A DNA stretch of 64,000 bases from a virus. Under the pieces are notes generated by a model, which was not told the DNA's origin, did no database searches, and saw only the letters and a list, made by a program, of their open reading frames with translations. The stretch spans positions 111,956-175,955 of the IMG/VR virus record IMGVR_UViG_3300045988_175607. The stretch is one strand, 5' to 3'. The translations under genes were made by a program, and so were the position numbers. Position 1 is the first letter of the stretch, and each line of letters starts with the position of its first letter. This document shows positions 10,043 through 48,270 of this stretch, in pieces.

Positions 10043-11107
10043 ATGAGCATGATAGAAAAGAACAAGAGCCAGTTTATGGTTACTCTGGAGAGCGGTAAGC
10101 AGACTTATTTTAACTTTGCTGATGGTAATATCTATGGTGTAAGCGGTAAAGTTGTACAAAAATTTAACGCTGAAGCTATGAGAATTTTGAAGTCTAATCA
10201 GAACAGCAATTTTATTGCCATGTATTTCTATGAAAGAACGCTGTCCTATTCCCCTTATATTGATATTAAAGAATGGCCTGTTTCTTTGGTAGAAACCATT
10301 TACAGCTTGTATGCAAGTCGCTATTCTGTTCATGTACTGGGTAGAATTGCTGAGTTCTGCTATAAGAATAGTTTTAAGCTGGACAAGAAGGGGGTTAAGA
10401 TTTTAACAGAAGCTCTTTCCAGCATGGAAGATAATAACGGCAAATTGGCTTGGATAGATAGCTATTTGCTGGAAAATGAAATCGCTAAAATGTCTTATAA
10501 TGATTTACCCGCGAAAATTATTTCCCTTATTTCAAGAGCTACGCTTGAAATGAAAAAATATATTATAGAAGATGCTCAGAAAATTGCTTTTCGATATGAA
10601 CATGAAAATTGGGAATATCTAAGTAAAGTAATACATTCTGCTGATACATACATTTATCCTTATATATCTCGTTATATTCAGCTTTGCAATTTCCTCCATC
10701 ATGAACGCACCTATAAAAACCTGTTTCAGTCCATTTGCATGATGGAAAAAGAAAAAGAGTTGATGGCCGATCAATTCTGTCTTGAATACCAGAAAAAAGC
10801 CCCTTTGTTCTTTGAAGATGAAAATTTTACAGTTCTCATTCCTACAACTGCGGACGAATTTAAGAAAGAAGCCGACTACCAGCAGAATTGTGTTTTTCGT
10901 CTGTACTATCCAAGGGTTAGGGAGTGCGAAACCCATGTAGTTTTTATTCGTAAAAAGTCTGACATTAACACGCCTTATATTACTTGCGAAGTTAATAACG
11001 ATGGTAAGATTGTTCAGTACCTTACAAGATTTAATAATAATGTAACAGATGATAATGCAAAAGCATTTGGGATTGCTTACCAAGAATATTTGCATGAGCA
11101 TTTCTAA
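10043..11107 (+). CDS. hypothetical protein (354 aa)
   Basis: ATG 10043 after aagggattgtgaggaaaataaa; no confident domain call. Confidence 0.5.
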   Translation: MSMIEKNKSQFMVTLESGKQTYFNFADGNIYGVSGKVVQKFNAEAMRILKSNQNSNFIAMYFYERTLSYSPYIDIKEWPVSLVETIYSLYASRYSVHVLGRIAEFCYKNSFKLDKKGVKILTEALSSMEDNNGKLAWIDSYLLENEIAKMSYNDLPAKIISLISRATLEMKKYIIEDAQKIAFRYEHENWEYLSKVIHSADTYIYPYISRYIQLCNFLHHERTYKNLFQSICMMEKEKELMADQFCLEYQKKAPLFFEDENFTVLIPTTADEFKKEADYQQNCVFRLYYPRVRECETHVVFIRKKSDINTPYITCEVNNDGKIVQYLTRFNNNVTDDNAKAFGIAYQEYLHEHF

Positions 11108-11111
11108 AAGC

Positions 11112-11146
11112 CAAAAGGGAGGGAAAAAAATCCCTTCTTTTTTTAT
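11112..11146 (+). terminator. rho-independent terminator
   Basis: gggagggaaaaaaatcccttc plus T-run. Confidence 0.6.
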
Positions 11147-11163
11147 ATTTTTGCGTGCGGGGC

Positions 11164-11192
11164 TTGACAAATAAATTTATTGGTGCTATAAT
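11164..11192 (+). promoter_or_regulatory. sigma-A promoter TTGACA-N17-TATAAT with AATCCAAGAGAGG leader
   Basis: ggcTTGACAaataaatttattggtgcTATAATtaagataatccaagagagg. Confidence 0.6.
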
Positions 11193-11233
11193 TAAGATAA
11201 TCCAAGAGAGGAACAGTAAAGGAGGCAATAACA

Positions 11234-11380
11234 ATGAATGAATTTTTTGGTTATTGCGGTTGGGATTTTGGCGGCGCACTGAATAATAAGTTTCAGAGGG
11301 GCGAACATGTACGCATTGGGCGTACTATGTATCGTGTGATTTTTCGTATCGGCTCTTGGCATTGGTTAAAAAGAATTTGA
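11234..11380 (+). CDS. small protein (48 aa, MNEFFGYCGWDFGG...)
   Basis: ATG after aaaggaggcaataaca; below ORF-track cutoff. Confidence 0.4.
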   Translation: MNEFFGYCGWDFGGALNNKFQRGEHVRIGRTMYRVIFRIGSWHWLKRI

Positions 11381-11389
11381 AAAAAAGAA

Positions 11390-11418
11390 TTGACATAACA
11401 GCTCTTTTGTGCTATAAT
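11390..11418 (+). promoter_or_regulatory. sigma-A promoter TTGACA-N17-TATAAT
   Basis: aaTTGACAtaacagctcttttgtgcTATAATaatatc. Confidence 0.6.
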
Positions 11419-11445
11419 AATATCATCAAAAGGAGGTTTGATAAT

Positions 11446-11610
11446 ATGCAGGTAAATGAAAACAGACTTGATACTGTTTTGCAAAGTTTTGTAGAATCAT
11501 TTAATGATTGCGCTTGTTGCCCTTTGACTTTTGATTGCGAAAAAGACAATGAAGGGATTGACTGTTATGAATGCATAGAACTGTTGAAAAAATGGCTCAT
11601 AGGGGAATAA
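11446..11610 (+). CDS. Cys-rich small protein (54 aa; CACCPLTFDC...CYEC)
   Basis: ATG after aaaggaggtttgataat; the ORF-track version starts upstream without an RBS. Confidence 0.45.
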   Translation: MQVNENRLDTVLQSFVESFNDCACCPLTFDCEKDNEGIDCYECIELLKKWLIGE

Positions 11611-12304
11611 CCCCCTATTTTTTTCAGCTGGTCGCCCTTGGCCATGGCGACCAGAATTTCAGTTTAATTAAGACTTGTAAATTTTTTTCTGCGCAAGTGT
11701 GGTTCAAGTGCCCTAACTAAAAAATCCTGTAATTAAGTCTTGGCGTCCCGGAGCCGGTTGTTAGGCTCCGGTATTTCCCCCGTGAACCCCATATGGCGAT
11801 TTTTTGCTCAATCCAGCGGCCCTGCCCATATGCGCCTGTTCTCCCGAAAAACCTGGGGCGCGCAAGCGCAGCCCCAAATAAAAAATCATATGTTTTTGAT
11901 CCCGCCCCGGCACTACCCAACCTTTTTATTCCTTTTGATTTTTTATAAAAAATATGTTATAATATTAAAAAAAAAGTAAAAATTCCAAAAGGAAACAAAA
12001 TAAAAATTTTGTCAAACCGCGCGCAACCATCCTGTGCGCCACCATCGCACAGTTTATTTTTATAAAAATATATTGTATAATAATATCATAATCAAAAAGG
12101 GAAAAAGGAGAATGCGGCAAGAGTATTAAAAGGTTGGTTCTATATCCAGTTTGCCTATCCTTTTGATTTGCTCCAAGTTTTTAATGCTCCAGTTATAACT
12201 TGCCGCCTCGGCAACTTTGTTAATGAAAATGGTTGGTTTTTATTAGCACTGTGCGGAATGTTGTAGAAGGCGTAATGCCTTCTACAATTTGTCCCGCCAC
12301 GGCA

Positions 12305-13033
12305 TTAGTTTTCTTTTAAAATGGCTTTAAGCTTTTCACGATATGATTCTAAGTATGTTATAAATATTTGGAATCGAGTTGTACGTGCAATGATATGGCC
12401 AGTTTTTTCAAGGAAACGTCTAATACAACTTCTAAAAGACAAATAATCATGTTCATCAGCTTGCATTAATCCAAAAAATTCTTCTGGACTCATTTCACCT
12501 TGATATACTGCATCAGCTAATAATGCAGCTTTTTTAATTATATCAGGACTGCGCGAATAGAAATCTGTAATAATTTGGTCAAATAAAATTACCTCATCTC
12601 CAGTCATAAGACGATAATGATCATAATCATCAAGTTTAATGCCCCAAATATAATCACGACTACCTATTTCACCATAGCTATCATCATCTTTAGTTATACC
12701 AAACAATTTAACTAAAATCTTTGATATTATTCTTTTAGCAGTCCTTTCACTGGTAAAGTAATTCTAAAGCATAAATAAACGTGCCATGCCGCTTATAGTT
12801 CCAAGACTATCATTCTCTTTGGCACAACGCAACACTTCATCAATAATTAATAATTCAGTTCTTGCATCGAAGTTTCTTTCATAAGTATCTTGGTATATTT
12901 CATTTATAATAACGCCACCATAAACTTTCTCATATTCGCAAAAATGAGAAAGCTTTTCATAGAATTTTACTGATGAATTTCTAAAATGACCGAACGACAC
13001 ACCAAACCAAGCAGCCAATTCTTGAGTTTTCAT
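12305..13033 (-). CDS. HTH-containing protein (243 codons), possible replication-initiator-like; one in-frame TAG at 12764-12766 fuses two ORF-track fragments
   Basis: 12764-13033 and 12305-12706 are in one frame across TAG (…ARLFML-TAG-NYFTSERTAKRIISKILVKLFGITKDD…); N-terminus MKTQELAAWFGVS is HTH-like. Confidence 0.5.
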
Positions 13034-13344
13034 TTTTCCCAGCTATAATTTCATAACATAAACATCCTCCTTTCTTTTAAGAGTCAAGAAAAAGTTGTAA
13101 TATTTTTTGGCACATCTATATGTCTTATAGAGAGGCCATTTTTCATTACAACTCTGACAAGATAATTAAACTTGTCATATCTTTCTACTTTATATAAAAA
13201 AAATATTTAATCTGTTTTATCATTCTTGCCCAAAGAAGCATAAAAAAAATGTGGGCCAAGCCCACGGAAATATGATATTTTTTTGACACGGTATGTTCCT
13301 TTCTTCCGGTGTAAAAAAAGGAACAACTATCACAAATGTTTTGT

Positions 13345-13440
13345 TCTGTTTCAAAATGAGAATTTTAAGATGAGATTTTCATTTCATTTTTTGAAATGAG
13401 TTTTCAATTTTAAATTGAGTTTTTGAAATCAAATTTTGGT
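13345..13440. repeat. iteron-like direct repeats (AAATGAGWTTTT x4-5)
   Basis: aaatgagaattttaagatgagattttcatttcattttttgaaatgagttttcaattttaaattgagtttttgaaatc. Confidence 0.45.
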
Positions 13441-13794
13441 TTTCTTTTTCATTATATATATAATAACATATTTTTATCAAATTGTAAAATAAAATATATA
13501 TGTTAATTTAAAGCGGAAACGGTTACGATAAAAAGAATGTGACCCTGAACGCGCGGTCGGCCACCACTCTTCCCCAATTCTAACATTTCTTTTTACTTCA
13601 CTCTACGCTCGTCAATTTTGTAACTATGTTTGTGATATCTAAGAATTTTAATTCCAATCTACAAAATTCAAGCTCTATAACCCCAACTCCACAATCTATT
13701 GTCAAAAAGATTGTCCTACCAGCTATTTTATCAAAACTCAAGCGCTTTATACTTACGTACAAAGCGCCCCTACATTACAATCAATTTTGAATAA

Positions 13795-13838
13795 AACACC
13801 TGCATTTCAAAAGTGTGTGAAAATTGCAGGTGTTTATA
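13795..13838. repeat. inverted repeat AACACCTGCA...GAAAATTGCAGGTGTT; its right arm recurs at 14700-14716
   Basis: aacacctgcatttcaaaagtgtgtgaaaattgcaggtgtt; acts as a terminator-like hairpin for the minus-strand gene. Confidence 0.5.
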
Positions 13839-13885
13839 TAAACTAATTGGACTTTATAGAATTTTATCCTACAAAACTCTACTTT

Positions 13886-14626
13886 TTAATCCTCAAACAC
13901 TAGCTCATCTATCAATTGCGTTCTCTTTTCTGGGAAGAATCCCAACTCTTCCGTTACCAACATCACAAACACATTATAATTATCTTCAGTTGACATAGTT
14001 GAATAACGCAAAGCCTCTTCTCGCTCAACCTTATTAATCTCGCCCTTGTGATAAGCATCATCAATTACAGCAATGCGCTCACTTTGTTCTCCATAAGCCT
14101 TTTCCGCACACTCTCTAATAATCTTCCTCGAATCCGCATCAAGAATATCAGTGCCTTCTTTATTCATCCAAACATACTAACTTCTGCCGCATTCACCATA
14201 ATCATTCTCAATATAATTTCTACCATAAGATTTACGTTTCCATATTCCAACATAAGAACAAACAGTCTTCTCAGAAACTTGTGCGCTTACTTCATTATTT
14301 TTACTATAAATACTTCTACCAACTCTTGTACCAGTATCAATCTTGGCTTTTCCCGCAGGAGTCAACCTATTGTTTTTATCTCTTACATTACCCCACTCTT
14401 TTGGAGCTTCTTTTTCAATCAACTCATAAGCTTTAGAATAAACAGGAATCTTAACTTTATCAATAATAATTCTTGATTTATCATAATGCCAATCTGCAAA
14501 TCCACTCAAAATTTTCATTTTTTTTTCTTTAACACTTGCACGACTTTTACCTAATGTATCTGGTTTTAACCCAAACCATGAAGATAATTCTTTTAAAGAA
14601 ATATAACCTTCTTTAAGTTCAATCAC
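13886..14626 (-). CDS. hypothetical protein (246 codons); in-frame TAG at 14177-14179 fuses ORF-track fragments 14177-14626 and 13886-14167
   Basis: …ENDYGECGRS-TAG-MVWMNKEGTDILD… continuous in one frame. Confidence 0.5.
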
Positions 14627-14646
14627 ATTAACTTTTCTCCTTTACT

Positions 14647-14717
14647 AAAATCTACTTTTAAATAAACACCTGCGATTTTTCAGCTATATTATATATAAGA
14701 GTGAAAATTGCAGGTGT
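14647..14717. repeat. inverted repeat AAACACCTGCGATTTTT...GAAAATTGCAGGTGTT (second copy of the 13795 element) enclosing a promoter-like loop
   Basis: The identical 16-nt arm gaaaattgcaggtgtt occurs at both ends of the two-gene cassette 13886-14626. Confidence 0.5.
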
Positions 14718-14864
14718 TCTATTAAAATGATAGGATAATGTAGGACTTCGTCCTACATTTATATATAAAATTTAATTAAAAATCACTACTCAATTTTGTC
14801 CAAAAATTTGTGCGGCAAAGCCGCACAATGTCCGCAACTTTACTTTGCGGACTAACGTCCGCAA

Positions 14865-14910
14865 CTTTACTTTTTTATATTTTTATTATATAATATATAT
14901 AGAAAAAATA
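14865..14910 (+). promoter_or_regulatory. conserved phage promoter motif (TATAAT-ATATATAGAAAA family)
   Basis: ttttttatatttttattatataatatatatagaaaaaataag; preceded by GTCCGCAACTTTACT direct repeats (14832-14870). Confidence 0.5.
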
Positions 14911-14933
14911 AGAAAAGGAGGTTTGCGCACTTT

Positions 14934-15374
14934 GTGCGCAAAACTACTATGAATATTAATGATTACCTTCTGACTTCCCTGCGCGATGGTCAGTCTGCTG
15001 AAGACCTCGCTAAGGATCTTTCTGCTGCCCTACAAGTCGCTGAAAAGCAAATTACCGAAGAAAAGCGCCTTTGCGAGCAAAGCTCGCAGCTTAAAACTGA
15101 CCTGTGCGATTGCCTGCGTAAGTATGTGGGTGCTGCGCACCCGCAGACTTACGATAAGCTTGTAGATGTCCACGGCAAAGACTTCACCAATGATGAAATC
15201 ATTGAAATAGTTGATAACACCATAAAAAATACCTCACTTGCGCTTAAGCTTTACGAAAGTATTGCCGATTTTTGCGGCGAAGCCGCAACCACACCAAAGA
15301 CTTGCAGTGAAGAGGCCACGACCACAAATTGGGAAAAGCTTTTTGGCGATTTCTTTAATAAGTATAATTTATAA
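14934..15374 (+). CDS. hypothetical acidic protein (146 aa), GTG start
   Basis: GTG 10 nt after aaaggagg; a stable hairpin tttgcgcactttgtgcgcaaa overlaps the start. Confidence 0.5.
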   Translation: MRKTTMNINDYLLTSLRDGQSAEDLAKDLSAALQVAEKQITEEKRLCEQSSQLKTDLCDCLRKYVGAAHPQTYDKLVDVHGKDFTNDEIIEIVDNTIKNTSLALKLYESIADFCGEAATTPKTCSEEATTTNWEKLFGDFFNKYNL

Positions 15375-15432
15375 AAGCTTTAATTTGTAAAAGCGCAGCT
15401 TTTACAAATTAAAATTAAAATTTTAAATAAAA

Positions 15433-15476
15433 AGAGAAGTTATAAATCTATTATAACTTCTCTTTTTTTATTATAT
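15433..15476 (+). terminator. rho-independent terminator (second of two tandem hairpins after 15374)
   Basis: agagaagttataaatctattataacttctct plus ttttttt; preceded by the ttaatttgtaaaagc/gcttttacaaattaa hairpin. Confidence 0.7.
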
Positions 15477-15614
15477 CCTTTGGGGCGACAGCCCCAAAGC
15501 GACGGGATGTTTTATAATTGTTCAAACGCAGTTTGAACAATTAACTAAAACTCACGGCGACAAAATACCATTATAATTAACATTATCATTATCATTATAA
15601 TTATCATTGTGCTT

Positions 15615-15860
15615 GTAAATACTTGTACAAGCTTGTTACAAACATTTCTCCCTCGCCTAATTAAAAAAGCTTGTATTTTTAATTAAAAAAGCTTGTATAC
15701 AAGCCCACTTTCCTTGTACAAAAATTTTAATTAAAAAAGCTTGTACAATTTTATTATTTTCATCTATAATCAAAAATAAAATTCAGCTTTCTTGCGCTCG
15801 ATTTCTGCTTGCTTACCAATTTCAACTTTGGTACCAACTTGTACAAAATTTGTACAAGCA
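15615..15860. repeat. cluster of TTGTACAA palindromes (at least 6) and three AATTAAAAAAGCTTGTA direct repeats
   Basis: cttgtacaagcttg, gcttgtatacaagcc, ccttgtacaaaaa, gcttgtacaatttt, acttgtacaaaatttgtacaagc; ttaattaaaaaagcttgta x3. Confidence 0.55.
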
Positions 15861-16300
15861 TTTTCCTTGTGGGGCGTTGCCCCACTATTCTCACTAAGCA
15901 ATTCCGCAAATTCTTCTCTAATTGTGCGCAATCTATACGAAACTGCTTGCTGCGAAATCCCCAGCTTTACACCAATCTCTTTCTGCGACAATCCTTGATT
16001 ATATAAAGCCGCAATTTCCGCAAGCCTATTTTCAACTTTTTTCTTTTGTCTACTGGATTCAAGCTTTGCATTATATTTTTCTACATTAACATCATTAACA
16101 GCTTTTAAAGTAGTCAACATCGCATCAATCATAGGATTATCACTACTTATCTAATCCGTCAACACTAACTCTATAGCCGATTCTGCAAGCTCTCCCGCCA
16201 AAATTGGATCACTCATATGAACTTTCTTAATCATATCCAATAAACTATTATATATAACCCCTGAACGCCTTGCCGCCGCATCATTAAACTTCTCTATCAT
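15770..16300 (-). CDS. sigma-70 family (ECF-like) sigma factor with one in-frame TAG (~16147-16149)
   Basis: 16298-16300 ATG (MIEKFNDAAARR…LVLTD-TAG-ISSDNPMIDAML…) is in frame with ORF-track 15770-16132; C-terminal region-4 HTH LSQKEIGVKLGISQQAVSYRLRTIREEF. Confidence 0.6.
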
Positions 16301-16490
16301 CTGAATAATCCTCTAACAAACGTTCAATAGCAAAACATATTACTTTTGATCTATTGGACATTTGCGTTTCTTTACAAAATCCATCCAAAAGCTATAATAA
16401 ATCACTTGGAATAGTAAAAGTAACTCTTGAGTTTGCGCTTTTTCTTTCTTTCAACTCTTGGAGCAATTGCGTTTTCATACTTTTTTGCAT
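16284..16490 (-). CDS. ribbon-helix-helix (CopG/Arc family) DNA-binding protein with in-frame TAG at 16392-16394
   Basis: MQKSMKTQLLQELKERKSANSRVTFTIPSDLL-TAG-LLDGFCKETQMSNRSKVICFAIERLLEDYSDDREV; a full RHH fold only if TAG is read through. Confidence 0.55.
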
Positions 16491-16628
16491 ACTACCTTTC
16501 ATATTTTTCGTATGACTAAATTATACCATAAAAAGTATGAAAATGCAAATTTTTTAATACTTGACTTTCTTCAAAAAATATCTTATAATATATTTATAAA
16601 AAATAATAAAGGACTTACAAATTGTACA

Positions 16629-16928
16629 ATGACTGAACTTTATAATTTTAGTTTTGAATTCTGCGCCGAAGGCGCAGAAAGCTCCACAAAAGAAAATACT
16701 CCGCCCCTCCTCTGTAATGGCATAGTTGCGGGAGCTGACTACGCGGACGCAGTAGCCAATATTGTCGGAACGTTCCGCTCCGACAAAAACAAAATCTCTA
16801 AACTCCTTGTCGAAGAAGTAGGCTCTTCCGCAGTCTTGATTGGCAACCCCAAACCAATTAAAGAGCTTTACTCTAACCCCGAAAAAGAAGAAGAACAAGT
16901 TAGTAATGAAACTGCTAACAACGAATAA
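16629..16928 (+). CDS. hypothetical acidic protein (~99 aa)
   Basis: ATG 16629 downstream of a conserved promoter motif; the ORF-track start at 16458 is unlikely. Confidence 0.4.
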   Translation: MTELYNFSFEFCAEGAESSTKENTPPLLCNGIVAGADYADAVANIVGTFRSDKNKISKLLVEEVGSSAVLIGNPKPIKELYSNPEKEEEQVSNETANNE

Positions 16929-16930
16929 AA

Positions 16931-16967
16931 TAAAAGGGAAACATATAGTTTCCCTTTTATTTTTTAT
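16931..16967 (+). terminator. rho-independent terminator
   Basis: aaagggaaacatatagtttccctttt plus T-run. Confidence 0.6.
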
Positions 16968-17174
16968 AAAAAATATACTATAATATATATATAAAGAAAA
17001 GAAAAAAGAAGAAAGGCTTGCGGAATGAAATTCCGCAAAGAAGTGATAAATGTGAAAAGCAATCCAATTCTCACTGCAATAACTAAACTCACCTTGCGCC
17101 ACTACCGCAACCTTCGCCGCAAACCTATAAACCGCACACCATGTTCACTTTAACTATCTCTTGGAGGAACCTTA

Positions 17175-17588
17175 ATGATTAACTTTTATCACAAAGAAAC
17201 CGCCGCAACCACCTTCGCTAACCTTACACCTGGTGACATTTTCCGCAAGCCCGATTCTGAAAAAGGTTTTTGTTATCTAAAAACCTGTACAGGTGATGCA
17301 ATAAACCTTATTACTGGTTATTGCTTCTACTGGAATCCAGAAGATAAAGTAATTCCAATCCCTAATACTATTCCTTATACAAATAGTCTTACAGGTAATT
17401 TCAAAGCCTATTTTGATAATATTAGTCTTGGAGAAACTTTTACTATTGACAACACTTATGCTAGTTTTTATATAAAAACTCCCATAAGCGAAAATAAAGA
17501 AAATGCCATCAATCTTGTTACTGGTGAAGCTTGCCATTTTGATAGTAAACAATCTGTTAAAATTTTGCACATAGATATAGAGGACTAA
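17175..17588 (+). CDS. hypothetical protein, tandem paralog of 17591-18013 (shared GETFTIDN motif)
   Basis: Both products ~138 aa with conserved ...GETFTIDN...Y.K core. Confidence 0.5.
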   Translation: MINFYHKETAATTFANLTPGDIFRKPDSEKGFCYLKTCTGDAINLITGYCFYWNPEDKVIPIPNTIPYTNSLTGNFKAYFDNISLGETFTIDNTYASFYIKTPISENKENAINLVTGEACHFDSKQSVKILHIDIED

Positions 17589-17590
17589 AT

Positions 17591-18013
17591 ATGATTACCT
17601 TTGTTACCAAAAACCCTCCTAAACAAGTTCAAATCTCTGAGCTTAATACAACCGCCATTTTTGTAGAACCTTACTTCACAAAAAACCTTTATTACATGAA
17701 ATTAGGATATGCCGATTTCATTAATCTCGCAAATGGTTACTACGGCACTTGGGATCCTGACGTTCTTGTAACTCCAATAGACGCAAATTGTCCTATTGAC
17801 ATTTTTGTCAATAAAACCGCAGACCGCACTCGTTTTTCTGACATAGACTATGGTGAAACTTTTACTATTGACAATGCGGCATTTCAAAGCTACTATATGA
17901 AAATTGACACAAACATACCAAATTATAACGCTGTCAATTTTATCACTGGTAAATTGTGTTTCTTTGAATCAAACCAGCCCATTCAAATTGCGGCAATCTT
18001 TTATGAGGTGTGA
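17591..18013 (+). CDS. hypothetical protein, tandem paralog of 17175-17588
   Basis: See 17175-17588. Confidence 0.5.
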   Translation: MITFVTKNPPKQVQISELNTTAIFVEPYFTKNLYYMKLGYADFINLANGYYGTWDPDVLVTPIDANCPIDIFVNKTADRTRFSDIDYGETFTIDNAAFQSYYMKIDTNIPNYNAVNFITGKLCFFESNQPIQIAAIFYEV

Positions 18014-18019
18014 GCTTAC

Positions 18020-18214
18020 ATGGAATTTTCAAAAATAACTGATTTCTTTTACTACCATGGTATAACATACCTTAAAATAAAACCGACCCATATTTACGAA
18101 CGTGAAACCAATGCAATATTTATGGCTAATGCCATAAATCTCAAAACTCGCAAACCTGAATTTTTTGCGGATGATGAAATCGTAAACCCCGTAAACCTCA
18201 CATTTACACTATAA
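18020..18214 (+). CDS. hypothetical small protein (64 aa)
   Basis: ORF with RBS-like gaggtgtgagc upstream. Confidence 0.35.
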   Translation: MEFSKITDFFYYHGITYLKIKPTHIYERETNAIFMANAINLKTRKPEFFADDEIVNPVNLTFTL

Positions 18215-18229
18215 AAAAGGAGCTACACT

Positions 18230-18481
18230 ATGAAATCTTTTATCTACACTGCTAAATATATTCTTAAAACCATAGATGACGAATACAAGGAATACTGCGA
18301 CCATGGTATAGTCGTAGGTGACAGTTATGCCGAAGCTATGTCTCAACTCGAAAAATTTTATGATCCAGAAGATCTCTATGAACTTAAAATTGTGTCGCTT
18401 CGCGATGACGGCATAACTCTCCTCCCTAATCTTCCCGATGTAGATCTTGAAAGCGCAATAGTTGCGGAAAACATTTGTTGA
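18230..18481 (+). CDS. hypothetical small protein (83 aa)
   Basis: ATG after aaaaggagctacact. Confidence 0.45.
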   Translation: MKSFIYTAKYILKTIDDEYKEYCDHGIVVGDSYAEAMSQLEKFYDPEDLYELKIVSLRDDGITLLPNLPDVDLESAIVAENIC

Positions 18482-18500
18482 AAGTGAGCAAAACTCACTT

Positions 18501-19112
18501 TCAACAACTTCCAAAAGAAGAAAGTAGCTTAACACCTCGTATTGTTGCAGGTATCAAAAAGCAACCTAATACATTACCAACTGCGGCAATCAATAGCGCA
18601 AATAACATTTTCGTAGTAGCCTGCGCTGTAAGTGCGCTAATCCAAAAGTAGAAAGAGTAAGCTATTGAATGTGTGAACCCCGCAACTAAAAACGCAAACA
18701 CATACATAATTGTCTCAAGCGCAGTTTCAGCTTTAACGCCCGCATAAACCAACACGCCGCAAAATATGCTGCGCACAAACACACTTAATAATTCCTCAAC
18801 TTGCGCACGCGAAATTGCCAATGCGATTTCCGATGAATCCACATTCCACATAAGTAACGCCGCAAGCGCAACCAAAAAAGTGCCAAGCGCATTAAACGCA
18901 AATATTCTCCCTAATTCTATTGCGGCTTTTGGAGCTTTAACTCTTTCTTCAATCATAAGTCCCGCTTTACCCGTTAGAAGACGCAATCCGAACCTTTTAA
19001 CCATAAGCAAGCCAATAGCAAAAAGAATTAAACCCACATAATTGGGCGCGCACAGACTGGCCACGCACCCTAAGGCTATTACTACCCCCGCTAAAATTTC
19101 AAGCAAATACAT
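18501..19112 (-). CDS. multi-pass membrane protein with an FNT-like GF(T)HSIA motif
   Basis: About 6 TM helices; AGFTHSIAYSF resembles the formate/nitrite transporter GFEHSIAN motif; locally GC-richer and on the opposite strand to its neighbours. Confidence 0.45.
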   Translation of the reverse strand: MYLLEILAGVVIALGCVASLCAPNYVGLILFAIGLLMVKRFGLRLLTGKAGLMIEERVKAPKAAIELGRIFAFNALGTFLVALAALLMWNVDSSEIALAISRAQVEELLSVFVRSIFCGVLVYAGVKAETALETIMYVFAFLVAGFTHSIAYSFYFWISALTAQATTKMLFALLIAAVGNVLGCFLIPATIRGVKLLSSFGSC

Positions 19113-19202
19113 TAATTATTTTTACCCCACAGTAAGTCTTTTAATATATTTATTATAACAAAAAATTTTGTTTCCGTCAAGAAAGAGAAAGGAATACCGA
19201 AA

Positions 19203-19529
19203 ATGATGAAACTAATACCTGCAGAAATGTCCGTGAAGCTTACCCTGCGCAAGCGCAATAAAAAGTTTAATCAAACAAGAAAGGCCGCAATAAGAGCTAT
19301 TAAAAGCGCCGCAAATAACGGAAAATATATTACTCTAACAAACATCCCTGATGATTGGACTGACGAAGAATTTCTCGCCTTTTGGACTTATTTTACTACT
19401 CAGGGTTATGCTCTTAAAGCTCTTGGAGTCGGAAACGATTATTGGACAAATTCTAAAGCGGCCATTAATCAATATCAAAAATATCCATTTAGTAGTATTG
19501 TTATATCATGGGAGCCTAAAAATGTCTGA
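19203..19529 (+). CDS. member 1 of a four-gene tandem paralog family (~100 aa, C-terminal ...(I/V)SW)
   Basis: NNGKYITLTNIPDDWTDEEFLAFWTYFTTQGYAL...ISWEPKNV; compare 19522, 20116, 20406. Confidence 0.5.
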   Translation: MMKLIPAEMSVKLTLRKRNKKFNQTRKAAIRAIKSAANNGKYITLTNIPDDWTDEEFLAFWTYFTTQGYALKALGVGNDYWTNSKAAINQYQKYPFSSIVISWEPKNV

Positions 19530-19833
19530 ACTAATAAATGCTAAAACTGCCGCCGAACGCTCTAAGATTGCACGCGCAAAAGCTTTTGAAAGAGCAAAAT
19601 CTGCCGCAGTAGAAAAAATCAATAACGCAATTCAAAATGGAAATTATAGTATTGTTATTGATTTAATTTCCCCCTGGACTAAAGACGAATTCAAAAATTT
19701 CTGGGACTACTTTGCCGCAAAAGGTTATCATCTCCAGCTAGGCGTTTATACTGATCGTGAAGAAGCTACAGAAAAATATATTAATGAATTTGGCAATTGG
19801 TATCTTACCGTCTCTTGGGGTGATGACTCTTGA
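19522..19833 (+). CDS. member 2 of the -SW paralog family
   Basis: QNGNYSIVIDLISPWTKDEFKNFWDYFAAKGYHL...VSWGDDS; ATG overlaps the previous stop (ATGTCTGA). Confidence 0.5.
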   Translation: MSELINAKTAAERSKIARAKAFERAKSAAVEKINNAIQNGNYSIVIDLISPWTKDEFKNFWDYFAAKGYHLQLGVYTDREEATEKYINEFGNWYLTVSWGDDS

Positions 19834-20066
19834 CATTCCAAGAGGCCACTAAATCCGTAGAAAACGCCCTGTCTTGCGCTCGTGAGATGGGGCAATTAGA
19901 GTACCCATTAATGCCAACGGCACTTGACCCTCAATTTGCCGAAGGGTCAGACGCACTCACGCAGTTGCTATTGTGGTTGCGGCAACGTGGCTGTACCTAT
20001 CGGCGCGAGGAGTTTTTCTCACCATTTGCAAATGAGAATAGAATAATATATAATATTAGACAATAA
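19830..20066 (+). CDS. hypothetical protein in a locally GC-rich (~50%) patch; coding status uncertain
   Basis: TTG-initiated ORF; the composition break 19850-20030 could equally be a structured RNA or a recent insertion. Confidence 0.3.
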   Translation: MTFQEATKSVENALSCAREMGQLEYPLMPTALDPQFAEGSDALTQLLLWLRQRGCTYRREEFFSPFANENRIIYNIRQ

Positions 20067-20115
20067 TAAAAAAATATAATATAATATATATATAATAAAA
20101 AAAGGAGAACAAGAT

Positions 20116-20412
20116 ATGTATTATGCTTATGAACTTCAAAATATAATGCACAATAATGCCAGAAATTATCTTAATACAGCTTTACAAGAAATAGATGATA
20201 AAATGCTTGATACTGCTACAAGAGGCGAAGATAGGGTAGAAATATGTCTTAATTTCCTCTGTGATAAAACAAGGATTGCATACTGGTCTGACGAAGATTG
20301 TAATTATATAACTAATACTCTTAGAACTTTTGGATATGAAATAATTAGTGTTCGTAAAGAACATCCTAATAGTTTTAAAGTAACTCTTTATTATGTAACA
20401 ATAAAGTGGTGA
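20116..20412 (+). CDS. member 3 of the -SW paralog family
   Basis: ...YNYITNTLRTFGYEIISVRK...YYVTIKW. Confidence 0.45.
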   Translation: MYYAYELQNIMHNNARNYLNTALQEIDDKMLDTATRGEDRVEICLNFLCDKTRIAYWSDEDCNYITNTLRTFGYEIISVRKEHPNSFKVTLYYVTIKW

Positions 20413-31603: not shown

Positions 31604-32866
31604 ATGATTTTAAGTTTAATTACATCTAATTCATGCAATCAAAAATGTTCATATTGTTATTTGCATAAAAATCCTGCTTATCAAGAACAAGATAAAAAGC
31701 TTTTACAGGCATTAGATGATGGTAGTTTTTTCAATAATATTATGAATACCATTCACTCTTTACACTATGACGTAAAAGATTTTGATACACTTGATTTTTG
31801 GGGTGGTGAGCCTACCCTATATTTTGATCAAGAAGATTATTTTGTTGACCAAATATTATATAATTTTCCTAATATAAATAAAATCGCATATTCGACAAAT
31901 TTTTCTACAATAGATCAACAGATAGATTTTATTAAGTATTTTAATAACTACATTCGTCATCTGGATTTATCCATTCAAATTTCTTATGATGGAATATTTA
32001 ATAAAATTACCCGTGGGGTTGATCCAAAAGAAATAAAGGAAAAATTAAAGCAATTTGTTTTCTTTTTAAATAAAGTTTATTTTAATAATTTAACTGTAAC
32101 AATTAATTTAAAAGCAACACTGCCTTGGGCTTTTTACCTTCAGCTTTGCACTGATGTAGAAAAATATCAAGAGTATTTAAAACACATTCAAGAATTACAA
32201 AAATATTTTGAAGCTCTTTCTTTGAATAAAAATGTTTTTTTGCGTATTAGTGATTCTATGATTTATCCTACCACAACCTCTCCTACTCATTACACTCAAG
32301 AAGATGGTAGACAATTTGCGCTTGGGGCTTATAATTTATATTTACATAATTTGCCCAATATACCTTTGCGCTTGGTAGAAAAATCTTTTAATGAGCCTTC
32401 TGATTATTGCGGACATATGACAAGGCAACTTTTATTTAAATACGATGGCACTCTGTCTCCTTGCCCCGCAGGGTTTATGGATGATAATGAGGCCAATCTT
32501 AAATGGTTAAAAGAAAATGACCCAGAAGAATATAAACAATTATTAAAAAGTAAATATCTTAGTAAAGAACACGATTATATTATTAGATATGTGGCGCAAG
32601 ACCTTAGAACGTCAGAGCTAACTTTTGTTATGAGTCAAATGTATGATTTGGCGCAAGCCGGCCTAATTTCTCCAGTGTATAAAGATAATGAGGCCGTGAG
32701 GTTCCGACATGCGCAATATTTAATTAACCTTCATTCCTGTTATTACTGGAATTTGCGCACTTCCGGCAGTTTATTCACCTTTTGGAATGATAATATAAAA
32801 TTATTCTGCAATGGATTGTTTGAATTTTATGATTGGATGAAAAATAATGGAACAGTATCAAATTGA
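31604..32866 (+). CDS. radical SAM enzyme (CX3CX2C, GGEP motif), cassette 1 first maturase-like gene
   Basis: SCNQKCSYCYLHK then FWGGEPTLYF; homolog of 38321-39667. Confidence 0.75.
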   Translation: MILSLITSNSCNQKCSYCYLHKNPAYQEQDKKLLQALDDGSFFNNIMNTIHSLHYDVKDFDTLDFWGGEPTLYFDQEDYFVDQILYNFPNINKIAYSTNFSTIDQQIDFIKYFNNYIRHLDLSIQISYDGIFNKITRGVDPKEIKEKLKQFVFFLNKVYFNNLTVTINLKATLPWAFYLQLCTDVEKYQEYLKHIQELQKYFEALSLNKNVFLRISDSMIYPTTTSPTHYTQEDGRQFALGAYNLYLHNLPNIPLRLVEKSFNEPSDYCGHMTRQLLFKYDGTLSPCPAGFMDDNEANLKWLKENDPEEYKQLLKSKYLSKEHDYIIRYVAQDLRTSELTFVMSQMYDLAQAGLISPVYKDNEAVRFRHAQYLINLHSCYYWNLRTSGSLFTFWNDNIKLFCNGLFEFYDWMKNNGTVSN

Positions 32867-34244
32867 AAATAATAAATTATTAACTTCTTTTATAGAAAGA
32901 CATTATTACAATGATCCAAATAAAGGAATTGAATTGTTCGTGCGCGCAAAATGTCCATCTAATTGTGTTTATTGTTATTTTAAAAAGTATGGTTGTGAAT
33001 TATATCCAGAAGATAAGCAAACTGATGAACAAATATTAAACAATTTAAATATATTTTTAGATTATTATATTAAAAAACAATTTACTAAAGATATTTCCTT
33101 ATTCTCTGGCGAGTTTATTATTGATGGATTATTTGGGCAAATTATGCAAATCTTTTATGATAAATTTACTAATCAATATTATAAACCTCGTGCAATAATA
33201 ATTTCTGATGATGGAGACTTTATTTCATATCCAGAAAAAATCCAAGAGGTAGAAGATTGGATTGCGCGACTGGCTTCAATAGGCATAGGTTTACATTTTA
33301 GTTTATCAGTTGATGGTAAATATATGGATATGAATCGTTCGCGGTCTCAGCGCACCGATGAGTATTACAAAACTCTTATTGATTTTTGTGATAAACACTT
33401 TTTTGCATTTCACCCAATGGTAAGTGCTTTCAATATCGACAAATGGATTGAAAATTATGATTGGTGGAAAAGTGTCCTTGATGATTTTCAATTTTCGCGA
33501 CTTATGTTACTTGAAGTGCGCGATGATAATTGGACAAATGATAAGATTCAAGAATACCTAAAATTCTTAAATTATGTTATTGAGGATAATTTTAAAAATC
33601 GTTATCATGGTAATCGCGAATTAATGGCGCAAAGAATTACTAATCAATTGTATTATACTACAGCTTCATATGATCCGCTTACCATTCCTTGCTTCTTAGA
33701 TGAAGATGGTCGCGATTATTTTGGTATGTGTTGTACTATAAAAACTAATTTGTGCGTGCGCTTAGGTGACCTTGCGATTGTACCTTGTCACCGCACCGCC
33801 TATCCGCAATTTGTCAATGGACATTTTGAAGTAATAGATGGAAAAATAAAAGGTATAGTTTGTGAAAACTACGAAATTCTTTCAGCTATTGGATCGTGGA
33901 ATCGTAATAGCGCACCTCGATGTAATTCCTGCAAAATAAAACAATGGTGTAGTGGAGGATGCCTTGGTTCTAATTTTGAATCAACTCATGAATTATTTAT
34001 TCCTCCTAAAACTGTATGTAATTTTATGCAGGCTAAATATAAATTTTTAATAATGAAATATGAAGATATGGGGTTGATGCCTTATATCAAAAACCATTTA
34101 TCTGAATTTCAATATAAATATATAGAAGATTATATGGATGTTTTATCCAAGGAGATTTTAATATATGGACGAGTTTTATCAGATAGAATCAATGATGCGC
34201 AAAATCAAGGAAAGTCTATCAGCCAATTCGTCAACCTTAGTTGA
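32847..34244 (+). CDS. radical SAM / SPASM-domain enzyme, cassette 1 second maturase-like gene
   Basis: KCPSNCVYCYF (CX3CX2C), FSGEF; C-terminal SPASM Cys cluster CCTIKTNLCVRLGDLAIVPCHRT...CNSCKIKQWCSGGC; homolog of 39633-41114. Confidence 0.75.
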   Translation: MEQYQIENNKLLTSFIERHYYNDPNKGIELFVRAKCPSNCVYCYFKKYGCELYPEDKQTDEQILNNLNIFLDYYIKKQFTKDISLFSGEFIIDGLFGQIMQIFYDKFTNQYYKPRAIIISDDGDFISYPEKIQEVEDWIARLASIGIGLHFSLSVDGKYMDMNRSRSQRTDEYYKTLIDFCDKHFFAFHPMVSAFNIDKWIENYDWWKSVLDDFQFSRLMLLEVRDDNWTNDKIQEYLKFLNYVIEDNFKNRYHGNRELMAQRITNQLYYTTASYDPLTIPCFLDEDGRDYFGMCCTIKTNLCVRLGDLAIVPCHRTAYPQFVNGHFEVIDGKIKGIVCENYEILSAIGSWNRNSAPRCNSCKIKQWCSGGCLGSNFESTHELFIPPKTVCNFMQAKYKFLIMKYEDMGLMPYIKNHLSEFQYKYIEDYMDVLSKEILIYGRVLSDRINDAQNQGKSISQFVNLS

Positions 34245-38316: not shown

Positions 38317-38320
38317 TAAA

Positions 38321-48079: not shown

Positions 48080-48153
48080 TGCGGGCTGGTGAAATGGTAG
48101 CCACAGCGCTCTCTAAAAGCGCCTTTTTCTGAGTTCAAGTCTCAGGCCCGCCG
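48080..48153 (+). tRNA. suppressor tRNA with CUA anticodon (reads UAG)
   Basis: tGCGGGCTGGTGAAATGGTAGCCACAGCGCTCTCTAAAAGCGCCTTTTTCTGAGTTCAAGTCTCAGGCCCGCCG; anticodon stem GCGCT/AGCGC, loop CUCUAAA, T-arm CTGAG/CTCAG; acceptor pairing imperfect in my hand fold. Confidence 0.6.
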
Positions 48154-48270
48154 CGGTATCATGTAGGGGCCTTTTCGTGGCGATACTATTTAAACTAATT
48201 CTACTAAACTCTCAGTATTTTGCTGAGAGTTTTTTTTTATTAAAAATTTATGATATAATATTTATAGAAA

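What the first reader, a model, noticed from the sequence alone, without database searches (positions are those of the whole stretch)
15600..16490. ECF-like sigma factor and RHH gene pair (both TAG-recoded) beside a field of TTGTACAA palindromes
On the minus strand a CopG-type RHH gene (16284-16490) is followed by, and overlaps, a sigma-70-family gene (15770-16300) with a region-4 HTH. Just beyond the sigma gene 3' end and overlapping its last codons, within 250 bp, are at least 6 copies of the perfect palindrome TTGTACAA and three AATTAAAAAAGCTTGTA direct repeats, plus two strong convergent terminators (15375-15476). A phage-encoded sigma with an upstream small DNA-binding protein suggests a late-gene switch; the palindrome field could be the RHH operator array, a recombination site or an origin. 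Both genes need TAG read-through, so their expression depends on the suppressor tRNA, a possible timing device.
Basis: partly seen in the sequence, partly recalled or inferred. Interest (0 to 1): 0.55.

Follow-up and report, generated by a model that had tools for sequence, protein, structure and literature searches.

The report
Likely phage replication origin and initiator
The supposed phage sigma factor is really an uncharacterised DNA-binding protein (DUF6291 family plus a helix-turn-helix) whose gene runs into an array of its probable binding sites and a conserved six-base repeat tract, an arrangement that most resembles a replication origin sitting in or beside its initiator gene.

Summary
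Both minus-strand genes are real and both need TAG read-through. 16284-16490 is a ribbon-helix-helix protein. 15770-16300 is not a sigma factor: it has no region 2, only a generic sigma-r4/LuxR/DeoR-type HTH behind a DUF6291 domain, and a disordered tail ending F-x-F.

The repeat field is real. There are five (not six) perfect TTGTACAA within 235 bp, further variants and three exact 17-mers. It is followed by a unique (AATGAT/AATTAT)n hexamer tract (15566-15613) and two hairpins.

The same order, gene, then short repeats, hexamer tract and hairpins, recurs in every relative examined, including 55% GC Coriobacteriia prophages. The stop codon floats, so the element is coding in some relatives and non-coding in others.

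In reverse, 37 of 42 phage ORFs that carry an exact (AATGTA)n tract are Pfam DUF6291 proteins. A DnaB-type helicase or primase-helicase is the first downstream ORF in at least 13 of 33 such loci.

Best reading (about 0.55): an iteron-type origin with its initiator, lambda O/ori or SPP1 G38P/oriL style, with the RHH as operon repressor. GC skew gives no support, no replication gene lies next to it in this window, and nothing is tested experimentally.

The parts
16520..16549 (-). sigma-70-like promoter of the RHH/DUF6291-HTH operon: TTTGCA, 18 nt, TG-TATAAT
   Evidence: 10 of 12 positions match, with an extended -10. It lies back to back with the + strand promoter. A consensus match only.
16561..16589 (+). 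divergent sigma-70-like promoter: TTGACT, 17 nt, TATAAT
   Evidence: 11 of 12 positions match. It drives gene 16629-16928 and the genes after it.
16473..16542 (.). three copies of TTTCATAYTTTT (16473-16484, 16497-16508, and inverted 16531-16542) around the operon's -10 and start; candidate operator for the RHH
   Evidence: Assigning them to the RHH is inference only.
16284..16490 (-). ribbon-helix-helix protein gene (68 aa; alternative start 16502), in-frame TAG at 16392-16394
   Evidence: RHH_3 is above its cut-off. A small RHH-type gene (RHH_1/DUF6290; only weak or faint RHH matches in L007/L008) precedes the DUF6291-HTH gene in L003, L006, L007, L008 and L015. In L001 an RHH-like ORF was read by eye, untested. 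L010 has a DUF5659 gene there instead.
15770..16300 (-). DUF6291 + HTH protein gene (176 aa), in-frame TAG at 16151-16153. DUF6291 domain about aa 5-91, HTH about aa 93-130 (nt about 15911-16024), disordered tail aa 139-176 ending F-Y-F
15839..15857 (.). two TTGTACAA palindromes inside the last third of the coding sequence (encoding ..ACTNFVQ..)
   Evidence: ENACT (GAAAATGCTTGTACA) is kept in relatives.
15611..15748 (.). repeat field after the stop codon: TTGTACAA at 15623, 15714 and 15741; TTGTATACAA at 15693; TTGTTACAA at 15633; three 21-nt direct repeats at 15655-15675, 15677-15697 and 15725-15745
15566..15613 (-). hexamer tract (AATGAT/AATTAT/AATGTT)n on the gene strand; proposed unwinding element
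   Evidence: this is the only match in the 64 kb, with 0.04 expected. It is among the 1.3% least stable 40-nt windows. The equivalent tract is present in all relatives.
15515..15543 (.). perfect 13-bp inverted repeat: TAATTGTTCAAAC, gca, GTTTGAACAATTA
   Evidence: I16. Hairpins follow the tract in the relatives read: L001, L003, L006, L007, L008, L015 and L016.
15478..15499 (.). G+C-rich hairpin: CTTTGGGGC, gaca, GCCCCAAAG, with no T-run
   Evidence: Comparable GC hairpins occur in L001, L006, L007, L015 and L016.
15378..15467 (.). two crossed terminator-like hairpins that end the minus-strand operon and the plus-strand gene 14934-15374
16622..16629 (.). isolated TTGTACAA overlapping the ATG of divergent gene 16629-16928; possible auxiliary site
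   Evidence: Conserved in the close relatives L011 and L013 but absent at that place in L003.
14934..15374 (+). conserved convergent partner gene (141-146 aa, helical), function unknown
   Evidence: It is homologous and syntenic in L001, L003, L006, L007, L011 and L013. The weak Rsd_AlgQ hit is not borne out by fold.
48080..48154 (+). tRNA with anticodon CTA (amber suppressor), needed to read both genes

Best explanation
The locus is a replication-origin module of a roughly 176-kb TAG-recoded phage. Its parts are a small operon (RHH protein, then a DUF6291+HTH DNA-binding protein) and, starting inside the 3' end of the second gene, a cis element. That element consists of about nine TTGTACAA-type sites, then a roughly 45-bp hexamer tract (AATGAT/AATTAT)n, then two hairpins.

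Proposed mechanism (inferred):
- The DUF6291-HTH protein oligomerises through its helical N-terminal domain and binds the palindromic sites through its HTH.
- The resulting nucleoprotein complex destabilises the adjacent A+T-rich hexamer tract.
- The disordered C-terminal tail, ending in the conserved F-x-F, recruits a helicase or loader.
- The RHH protein represses the operon promoter and so sets initiator dosage, as CopG does for RepB.
- Transcription from the operon promoter runs through the element before terminating at 15378-15467.

What is shown: the anatomy, its conservation both in and out of reading frame, the family membership, and the location of canonical family members in replication modules.

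What is inferred: binding, melting, recruitment and origin activity.
For: 1. The protein is a site-specific-type DNA binder, not a sigma factor.
   - It carries DUF6291 (hhalign 95.3%, E 2.2e-8) plus a generic HTH.
   - The AF2 model is confident for aa 12-134 and disordered for aa 139-176.

2. The sites are concentrated at one place. Five of the 9 TTGTACAA in the window fall within 235 bp.

3. The same order recurs in every relative examined: HTH-coding part, then short repeats, then hexamer tract, then hairpins.
   - Relatives read: L001, L003, L006, L007, L008, L015 and L016; L010 is cut short.
   - The repeat word differs between lineages: TTGTACAA/TACAACC, TTTACCAAAA/TACAAACA, TTGTCCAAC.
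   - The stop codon floats. The element is wholly coding in L003, L008, L015 and L016 (translated NYNYNY, DNDNDN, YEYEYD..ENEN, TDTDTD) and mostly non-coding in the window, L001, L006 and L007. The constraint is therefore on the DNA.

4. In close relatives the non-coding element is 98.3% identical, against 87.5% at third codon positions of the gene.

5. The hexamer pattern occurs once in 64 kb (0.04 expected). A stricter form of the pattern occurs exactly once, on the gene strand, in six of the ten other loci scanned; L003, L007, L010 and L016 carry variant or truncated tracts.

6. Reverse test. An exact (AATGTA)3.7 scan of IMG/VR gave at least 120 loci.
   - In 75 of the 120 the tract lies inside an ORF of at least 90 aa.
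   - 37 of 42 non-redundant phage-like ORFs among these are Pfam DUF6291. One more is Lin1244_N + Phg_2220_C.
   - In 23 of 35 loci the 160 nt 5' of the tract are unusually self-repetitive.

7. Those canonical DUF6291 genes sit in replication modules.
   - Flanking ORFs include DnaB_C (9), DnaB N-terminal (7), Toprim (4), SSB (3), ERF (2) and Bac_DnaA_C (2).
   - A helicase or primase-helicase is the first downstream ORF in at least 13 of 33 loci.

8. In the Olsenella prophage-like element the RHH and DUF6291-HTH genes are the only recognisable DNA-transaction genes between the integrase and terS/terL/portal.

9. Precedent: SPP1 oriL consists of iterons plus an AT-rich DUE embedded in the replisome-organiser gene 38 (PMC5737612).
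Against: - GC skew shows no switch at 15.6 kb. The cumulative maximum is near 11.5 kb and the minimum near 20 kb. The most A+T-rich, least stable stretch of the window is at about 20043-20110, not here.
- No helicase, primase, loader or polymerase gene was recognised among the ORFs tested in the window, which were the ten nearest the pair and a sample of the larger ORFs elsewhere.
- The hexamer tract is in the least-stable 1.3% of 40-nt windows but is not extreme.
- (AATGTA)n also occurs in unrelated contexts, for example giant-virus contigs, so on its own it does not identify an origin.
- The co-variation between HTH recognition helix and repeat word is confounded by relatedness.
- No member of DUF6291 has any published function.
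- No binding or replication assay exists.
Confidence: 0.55

Rival explanations
1. A transcriptional control pair. The RHH and the HTH protein are repressors or activators of the early region (a switch between the divergent promoters), and the palindromes are an operator array, perhaps a sink or roadblock at the end of the operon.
For: - Back-to-back sigma-70-like promoters lie at 16520-16589.
- One TTGTACAA sits over the start codon of the divergent gene and is kept in close relatives.
- The HTH resembles DeoR, LuxR and sigma-r4 DNA-binding domains of regulators.
- In prophage-like L015 the pair lies just after the integrase, where switch genes usually lie.
Against: - Nearly all sites lie at the 3' end of the gene or beyond it, not at promoters.
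- The other three TTGTACAA copies in the window are inside unrelated coding sequence.
- L003 has 8 sites in the gene and none at the divergent promoter.
- An operator model does not explain the conserved hexamer tract and hairpins, nor why canonical DUF6291 genes with the same tract sit directly upstream of helicase or primase genes.
Confidence: 0.2
2. A DNA-segregation or packaging site. The field would be a centromere bound by the RHH and/or HTH protein (as with omega or ParG on tandem short repeats), or a pac site recognised by a small-terminase-like HTH protein encoded over its own site.
For: - RHH centromere-binding proteins that bind tandem 7-11 bp repeats are known (own knowledge).
- pac sites inside the terS gene are known, for example P22 and P1 (own knowledge).
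Against: - No partition ATPase or terminase was recognised among the ORFs tested in the window.
- L015 has its own separate TerS next to TerL.
- Canonical relatives sit in replication modules, not in packaging or partition modules.
Confidence: 0.08
3. One reading: a divergent phage sigma factor that redirects host RNA polymerase to late promoters, regulated by the RHH protein and by suppressor-tRNA availability.
For: - There are borderline Sigma70_r4 and Sigma70_ECF matches confined to the HTH.
- Some database annotators call relatives 'sigma factor-like HTH'.
- The convergent neighbour gives a weak Rsd_AlgQ hit.
Against: - There is no region 2 by sequence or by fold.
- TIGR02937 scored 23 bits against a cut-off of 42.9.
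- The N-terminus is DUF6291.
- The Rsd-like hint fails at the level of family profile and fold.
- A sigma factor has no need for an array of palindromes in its own gene.
Confidence: 0.04
4. The repeats have no function as DNA. They would be the footprint of a low-complexity, fast-evolving protein linker (slippage-prone microsatellite) plus ordinary terminator hairpins.
For: - The tail is predicted disordered.
- Tails vary greatly in length across the family.
- (AATGTA)n also occurs in unrelated ORFs.
Against: - The tract and repeats persist, on the same strand and in the same order, where they are not translated: the window, L001, L006 and L007.
- The amino acids encoded change (NV, ND, NY, YE, EN, TD) while the 6-nt period and the T-G core stay.
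- The non-coding element is better conserved than synonymous positions.
Confidence: 0.06

Closest known systems
Bacteriophage lambda O protein with ori-lambda (own knowledge of the classical system)
   Same: - The origin lies inside the initiator gene, in the part encoding the flexible linker between the DNA-binding N-terminal part and the partner-binding C-terminal part.
- The order is repeated binding sites with internal symmetry, then an A+T-rich stretch, then a palindrome.
- The iteron sequence differs between related phages.
- The next gene in canonical relatives is often a helicase or loader.
   Different: - No sequence or fold relationship to lambda O was found or tested.
- The DNA binder here is DUF6291 plus a tetra-helical HTH.
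- The A+T-rich part is a regular hexamer microsatellite.
- In this window most of the element lies after the stop codon, and no helicase or loader gene is adjacent.
Bacillus phage SPP1 replisome organiser G38P with oriL (PMC5737612)
   Same: - oriL (AB-box iterons plus an adjacent AT-rich DUE) is embedded in gene 38.
- The organiser binds the boxes and hands over to loader G39P and helicase G40P, which are encoded downstream.
   Different: - It is a different protein family.
- SPP1 has a second binding region (oriR); no second copy of the field exists in this 64-kb window.
- SPP1's activity is demonstrated in vitro; nothing is demonstrated here.
Pfam PF19808 (DUF6291), family of unknown function
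   Same: - The N-terminal domain aa 5-77 aligns to canonical DUF6291 at 95.3% probability.
- Canonical members carry the same repeats-then-hexamer-tract insert.
   Different: - The window protein scores below Pfam's gathering cut-off on its own (22.6 against 27.2 bits).
- It has an HTH where canonical members have a basic ..NGKKGGRPK.. segment and other C-terminal domains.
- No function is published for the family.
CopG-RepB operon of plasmid pMV158 (own knowledge)
   Same: A small ribbon-helix-helix protein is encoded first and co-transcribed with the replication initiator, whose dosage it controls by repressing the common promoter.
   Different: - RepB is an HUH nuclease for rolling-circle replication; the protein here has no nuclease domain.
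- Repression by the RHH is inferred, not shown.
ECF / sigma-70 family sigma factors
   Different: - There is no region 2.
- All whole-protein sigma models score far below their cut-offs.
- The N-terminal domain is DUF6291.

Membership tests
Sigma-70 / ECF sigma factors | Region 2 (core binding, -10 recognition) | tested here: not met
Sigma-70 / ECF sigma factors | Region 4 HTH scoring above the family thresholds | tested here: inconclusive
   Sigma70_r4 23.0 against 24.1 bits. Sigma70_ECF 21.2 against 21.1 bits, but covering only profile positions 136-181 of 185. TIGR02937 23 against 42.9 bits. MarR_2, HTH_24 and GerE score equally well.
Ribbon-helix-helix (CopG/Arc/MetJ) proteins | Beta-strand, helix, helix motif recognised by the family profile | tested here: met
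   RHH_3 24.3 bits, above the 21.6 cut-off, aa 26-66; RHH_1 17.8 bits. PHROG Arc-like and CopG-like repressors also match. It aligns with the RHH genes of relatives.
Pfam DUF6291 (PF19808) | N-terminal helical domain matching the family profile | tested here: met
   The single sequence scores 22.6 bits, below the gathering score of 27.2, over profile positions 3-76 of 79. Family against family by hhalign gives 95.3%, E 2.2e-8, 70 columns. Relatives P0036 and P0037 carry precomputed PF19808 hits.
Iteron-type (theta) replication origin with cis-encoded initiator | Cluster of at least 3 repeated sites for a DNA-binding protein encoded in cis | tested here: met
   Five perfect and about four variant TTGTACAA sites plus three 17-21-nt direct repeats lie in 15611-15857. 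Equivalent clusters occur in all relatives. This holds at sequence level only.
Iteron-type (theta) replication origin with cis-encoded initiator | Adjacent A+T-rich unwinding element | tested here: inconclusive
   The hexamer tract 15566-15613 directly abuts the sites and lies in the 1.3% least stable 40-nt windows. It is not the least stable stretch of the window.
Iteron-type (theta) replication origin with cis-encoded initiator | Strand-composition (GC-skew) switch at the origin | tested here: not met
   The cumulative skew maximum is near 11.5 kb and the minimum near 20 kb, with no inflection at 15.6 kb. Only 64 of about 176 kb were seen, and phage skew often follows transcription.
Iteron-type (theta) replication origin with cis-encoded initiator | Linkage to helicase, loader or primase genes | tested here: inconclusive
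   Not met in the window. Met for canonical DUF6291 genes carrying the tract: DnaB_C in 9 and Toprim in 4 of 70 flanking ORFs, and a helicase as first downstream ORF in at least 13 of 33 loci.
Iteron-type (theta) replication origin with cis-encoded initiator | Initiator binds the repeats; the fragment supports autonomous replication | not testable with these tools
   Needs EMSA or footprinting and a replication assay.
TAG-to-Gln recoded phage (genetic code 15) | Suppressor tRNA, and in-frame TAG at sense positions of conserved proteins | tested here: met
   tRNA-CTA lies at 48080-48154. TAG codon 50 aligns with genuine CAA/CAG Gln in L001 and L007, and with Glu or Asp elsewhere. Pfam matches span both TAGs. 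The public gene call P0001 is the 176-aa read-through product.

The most novel reading that the evidence does not exclude
DUF6291 proteins, including this HTH-bearing branch, are a widespread and so far unrecognised class of phage replication initiators whose origins are written into or just behind their own genes. Within these origins the conserved hexamer microsatellite (AATGTA/AATGAT/TATGAG)n would be a specific functional element, not merely A+T-rich DNA. It could be a single-strand binding track for the initiator, analogous to DnaA-trios. It is conserved from 35% GC gut phages to 55% GC Coriobacteriia prophages. If so, the pair 'DUF6291 gene + hexamer tract' would locate origins in thousands of uncultivated phage genomes.
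Probability: 0.35. Interest if true: 0.72.

Novelty: new variant of a known kind. Interest (0 to 1): 0.58.

Why it matters
- Origins and initiators of most uncultivated phages, including large TAG-recoded gut phages, are unknown, and GC skew is often uninformative for them.
- This work offers a sequence signature found here in both directions (family gene to tract, and tract to family gene). It ties a domain of unknown function that has no literature to replication modules.
- The signature yields a cheap, testable origin predictor.
- It also gives a concrete fragment (window 15.35-16.56 kb) for building replicons or studying initiation in Clostridia-type hosts.
- It removes a false 'phage sigma factor' annotation that is already spreading in databases.

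Tried and rejected
- **Known cultured relatives.** No DNA or protein match in 50,697 GenBank phages, and no relative in IMG/VR by peptide patterns. The single plasmid hit (Selenomonas pSRC3) shares only the HTH and has no repeat field, so it was dropped.
- **GC skew and duplex stability as support for an origin.** Neither points to 15.6 kb.
- **Co-variation of the recognition helix (QQA against QQT) with the repeat word.** The direction is consistent, but the result is dominated by near-identical sequences, so it was not used as evidence.
- **First HMM for the reverse test.** It was too narrow and found 1 of 120. A broader HMM and then Pfam were needed.
- **Rsd/AlgQ-like anti-sigma reading of the convergent gene 14934-15374.** The Pfam hit is below cut-off and confined to the window lineage. 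There was no PDB profile hit. The AF2 model matches only coiled coils. Rejected.
- **Known RNA family in the 3' region.** None found.
- **Identity of the suppressor tRNA by similarity to the phage's own tRNAs.** Uninformative.
- **Crude ORF-length statistics for recoding.** Uninformative.
Full report
**Observation**

On the minus strand, ORF 16284-16490 (an earlier ATG lies at 16502) overlaps ORF 15770-16300 by 17 nt. Each ORF contains one in-frame TAG, at 16392-16394 and 16151-16153.

TTGTACAA occurs 9 times in the window against 1.8 expected. Five copies lie between 15623 and 15857, and a sixth sits at 16622 over the ATG of the divergent gene. The 17-mer AATTAAAAAAGCTTGTA occurs three times exactly. 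The field also contains TTGTATACAA, TTGTTACAA and four GCTTGTA half-sites. Two terminator-like hairpins lie at 15378-15414 and 15429-15467.

The observation therefore holds apart from the count (five, not six) and the family label of the larger gene.

**The two proteins**

The small protein is a ribbon-helix-helix protein: RHH_3 24.3 bits against a cut-off of 21.6, with Arc/CopG-type PHROGs also matching.

The larger protein is not a sigma factor.
- No region-2 match appears at E<=1.
- The sigma-related matches cover only aa 89-133. They lie at or below the cut-offs and are no better than MarR_2, HTH_24 or GerE.
- NCBIfam's general sigma-70 model scores 23 bits against 42.9 required.
- The N-terminal 90 residues match Pfam DUF6291 across nearly the whole profile, just below its threshold.
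- A profile of this protein's relatives aligns to a profile of canonical DUF6291 proteins with 95.3% probability (E 2.2e-8).
- The AlphaFold model is confident for aa 12-134: three N-terminal helices, one of them 35 residues long, then a compact HTH. It is disordered for aa 139-176.

**TAG read-through**

- A tRNA with anticodon CTA lies at 48080-48154.
- Both Pfam matches run across the TAGs.
- The public gene call on 176-kb contigs is exactly the 176-aa read-through product (P0001).
- In relatives the column of TAG codon 50 holds Gln, Glu or Asp. In L001 and L007 it is a genuine CAA/CAG codon.
- TAG positions differ between relatives. L006 has five, L001 one near the C-terminus, and L008 and L010 use TAG as their stop.

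Recoding is thus a property of the genomes, not a conserved feature of this gene. The 'timing device' idea fits the published model of early standard-code and later recoded expression (bioRxiv 10.1101/2021.08.26.457843), but nothing here tests it.

**Anatomy of the DNA, read in the direction of the genes**

1. The last third of the coding sequence holds two palindromes (15839-15857).
2. The stop codon is at 15770.
3. A field of palindromes follows, with three 21-nt direct repeats each ending in a half-site (15611-15748).
4. Directly abutting it is a tract of hexamers: AATGAT AATTAT AATGAT AATGAT AATGTT AATTAT (15566-15613).
5. Next comes a perfect 13-bp inverted repeat (15515-15543).
6. Then a G+C-rich hairpin without a T-run (15478-15499).
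7. Only then come the terminators.

The hexamer pattern occurs nowhere else in the 64 kb (0.04 expected). It lies among the 1.3% least stable 40-nt windows. No Rfam family matches the region.

**Relatives**

The protein family is large: 1016 clusters at 50% identity with E<=1e-3, and 110 below 1e-30. It is almost entirely metagenomic. I read the DNA of relatives at 45-58% identity (L001, L003, L006, L007, L008, L010). I also read two Coriobacteriia genomes found by a genome scan, Olsenella uli (L015) and Collinsella provencensis (L016).

All show the same order after the HTH-coding part: a dense array of short words, a hexamer tract, then one or two hairpins.

- The words differ by lineage.
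  - L003: eight TTGTACAA plus many TACAACC/GGTTGTA.
  - L001, L006, L007 and L008: TTTACCAAAA and TACAAACA.
  - L015 and L016: TTGTCCAAC.
- The tract keeps its 6-nt period and its T-G core: AATGTA, AATGAT, AATTAT, TATGAG/AATGAG, ACTGAT.
- The stop codon floats.
  - In L003, L008, L015 and L016 the whole element is translated, as NYNYNYNYN, DNDNDNDN, YEYEYDYEYDNEND..., VTDTDTVTDTE...
  - In the window, L001, L006 and L007 most of it is untranslated.

What is conserved is therefore the DNA, not a peptide.

Among close relatives (L013, L011), the non-coding element is 98.3% identical to the window where third codon positions are 87.5%. Across the protein family, 41 of 146 tails carry runs of x-Asn dipeptides, which are the translated tract, and 77 of 146 end in F-x-F.

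A small RHH-type gene precedes the gene in most relatives whose upstream DNA was held (L003, L006, L007, L008, L015). In L010 that place is taken by a DUF5659 gene. A conserved helical protein of 133-159 aa is encoded convergently just beyond the element in L001, L003, L006 and L007, as in the window and its close relatives L011 and L013.

**Reverse test**

A scan of IMG/VR for an exact AATGTAAATGTAAATGTAAATG returned at least 120 loci.

- In 75 of them the tract lies inside an ORF of at least 90 aa.
- After I removed duplicates, obvious giant-virus ORFs and very long ORFs, 42 ORFs remained. Of these, 37 are Pfam DUF6291 proteins (best E 1.2e-27). One more is a Lin1244_N + Phg_2220_C protein, a domain pair of phage replication-organiser-type proteins.
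- Their architecture is: DUF6291 domain, a linker made of repeated peptides (DNA iterons, for example AAAAACCTATGGTTTC four times in L021), NVNVNVNDNVN, then a variable C-terminal domain.
- In 23 of 35 such loci the 160 nt before the tract are more self-repetitive than at least 95% of control windows.

The ORFs flanking these genes are typical of replication modules. Of 70 ORFs, DnaB_C matched in 9, DnaB N-terminal in 7, Toprim in 4, SSB in 3, ERF in 2 and Bac_DnaA_C in 2. A helicase or primase-helicase is the first downstream ORF in at least 13 of 33 loci.

In the Olsenella element the order is guaA, integrase, a 197-aa ORF, RHH, DUF6291-HTH with the embedded element, three small ORFs, TerS, TerL, portal. 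The pair is the only recognisable DNA-transaction function between integration and packaging.

**Mechanism proposed**

The arrangement is that of an iteron-type origin lying in or behind the gene of its initiator. It parallels lambda O/ori (own knowledge) and SPP1 G38P/oriL, where AB boxes and an AT-rich DUE are embedded in gene 38 (PMC5737612).

I propose the following.
- The DUF6291-HTH protein binds the palindromes as an oligomer.
- This opens the hexamer tract.
- The protein uses its F-x-F tail to recruit a helicase or loader.
- The RHH protein represses the operon promoter. Three TTTCATAYTTTT copies around the -10 are a candidate operator.

Binding, melting, recruitment and repression are all inferences.

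**Limits and contrary evidence**

- GC skew has no inflection at 15.6 kb. The block from 11 to 20 kb has negative skew, and the cumulative minimum, near 20 kb, coincides with the most A+T-rich stretch of the window.
- No replication gene was recognised among the ORFs I tested in the window. These were the ten nearest the pair and a sample of the larger ORFs elsewhere, which proved largely auxiliary: radical-SAM proteins, an RNA ligase, a PHROG 'RNA-binding protein'. The window also holds nine tRNA genes.
- (AATGTA)n also occurs in unrelated contexts.
- The selection of 42 ORFs for the Pfam test was mine.
- No DUF6291 protein has been studied.

**Rivals**

- An operator array of a transcriptional switch remains possible. 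One site lies over the divergent gene's start codon and is conserved in close relatives. This reading does not explain the location of the sites, the tract, or the linkage to helicases.
- Centromere and pac-site readings lack the partner ATPase or terminase. L015 also has a separate TerS.
- The sigma reading fails on region 2. The weak Rsd_AlgQ hint in the convergent gene fails at profile and fold level.
- A purely protein-level explanation fails because the element persists untranslated.

**Verdict**

This is a new variant of a known kind: an origin-in-initiator-gene module built on an uncharacterised protein family, with a conserved hexamer microsatellite. The window's copy is an HTH-bearing branch of that family. 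Confidence in the origin/initiator reading is about 0.55.

Noticed in passing
window 11000-20000 and 20043-20110: A 9-kb block has strongly negative GC skew (-0.19 to -0.29 over about 12-19 kb). It includes plus-strand genes (17175-18481) and is flanked by positive skew. The cumulative skew minimum, near 20 kb, coincides with the least stable, most A+T-rich stretch of the window, just upstream of gene 20116-20412. This could be an inverted or acquired block, or an alternative origin candidate.
   Followed up: partly
window 14934-15374 (+); L001 7831-8271, L003 8076-8477, L006 2185-2640, L007 2196-2675: A conserved helical protein of 133-159 aa is encoded convergently just beyond the element, from the window to distant relatives. 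It has N-terminal D.L..LQNGESAE.IA..L..ALNAA and C-terminal ..DFF.K.NL. A weak Rsd_AlgQ hit appears only in the window lineage, and no Rsd-like fold was found. Its function is unknown, but it looks like a third member of the module.
   Followed up: yes
window 12305-13087 (-) and 13886-14626 (-): Two minus-strand genes with in-frame TAGs share an N-terminal motif (..ELAAWFGVS.. / ..ELSSWFGLK..). They look like paralogues with a possible HTH. They have no Pfam or PHROG match.
   Followed up: no
window 17175-17588 and 17591-18013 (+): Tandem paralogous genes. Each is built of two copies of a small domain matching PHROGs 6570 and 7431 (unknown function). They are the first sizeable genes of the operon divergent from the RHH gene.
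   Followed up: no
window 18501-19112 (-); L001 2670-3251, L011 732-1343, L013 89-700: A formate/nitrite-transporter-like membrane protein (Form_Nir_trans, E 2.8e-17) is kept in synteny near the module in relatives. This is an unusual gene for a phage.
   Followed up: no
window 31604-34244 and 38060-41114 (+): Two pairs of paralogous large genes. The first of each pair has a radical-SAM-like CxxxCxxC start (phrog_1802 for 31604-32866). The pairs are separated by about 4 kb and a tRNA-Ser gene.
   Followed up: no
window 43771-48154 and 53688-55085: A cluster of five tRNA genes (43771-45023) lies upstream of a 495-aa protein matching a PHROG 'RNA-binding protein' (phrog_850, E 3.6e-126), which I read as Ro/TROVE-like from memory (46526-48013). 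The suppressor tRNA-CTA follows immediately after it (48080-48154). An RNA ligase is at 53688-55085. Together these suggest a tRNA repair or maintenance module next to the code-change machinery.
   Followed up: no
IMG/VR loci L017-L136 (e.g. L019 4133-5950, L062 1865-3634, L079 4507-6339): Several helicase, primase-helicase and SSB ORFs next to canonical DUF6291 genes end in ..PF (for example DDVPF, IAPF, DNLPF). The window's DUF6291-HTH family ends in F-x-F. Short aromatic C-terminal tails may be the common currency of contacts in these replisomes.
   Followed up: no
IMG/VR loci such as L031, L055, L066, L088 (GVMAG contigs), L064, L105: The same (AATGTA)n microsatellite also occurs in giant-virus and other contigs, inside unrelated low-complexity ORFs. 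The tract is therefore informative only together with a DUF6291-type gene.
   Followed up: partly
protein P0225: A homologue of the convergent partner gene lies on a 175,779-bp contig that NCBI files as a MAG of Clostridium sp. This is the only host hint obtained for this phage lineage.
   Followed up: no
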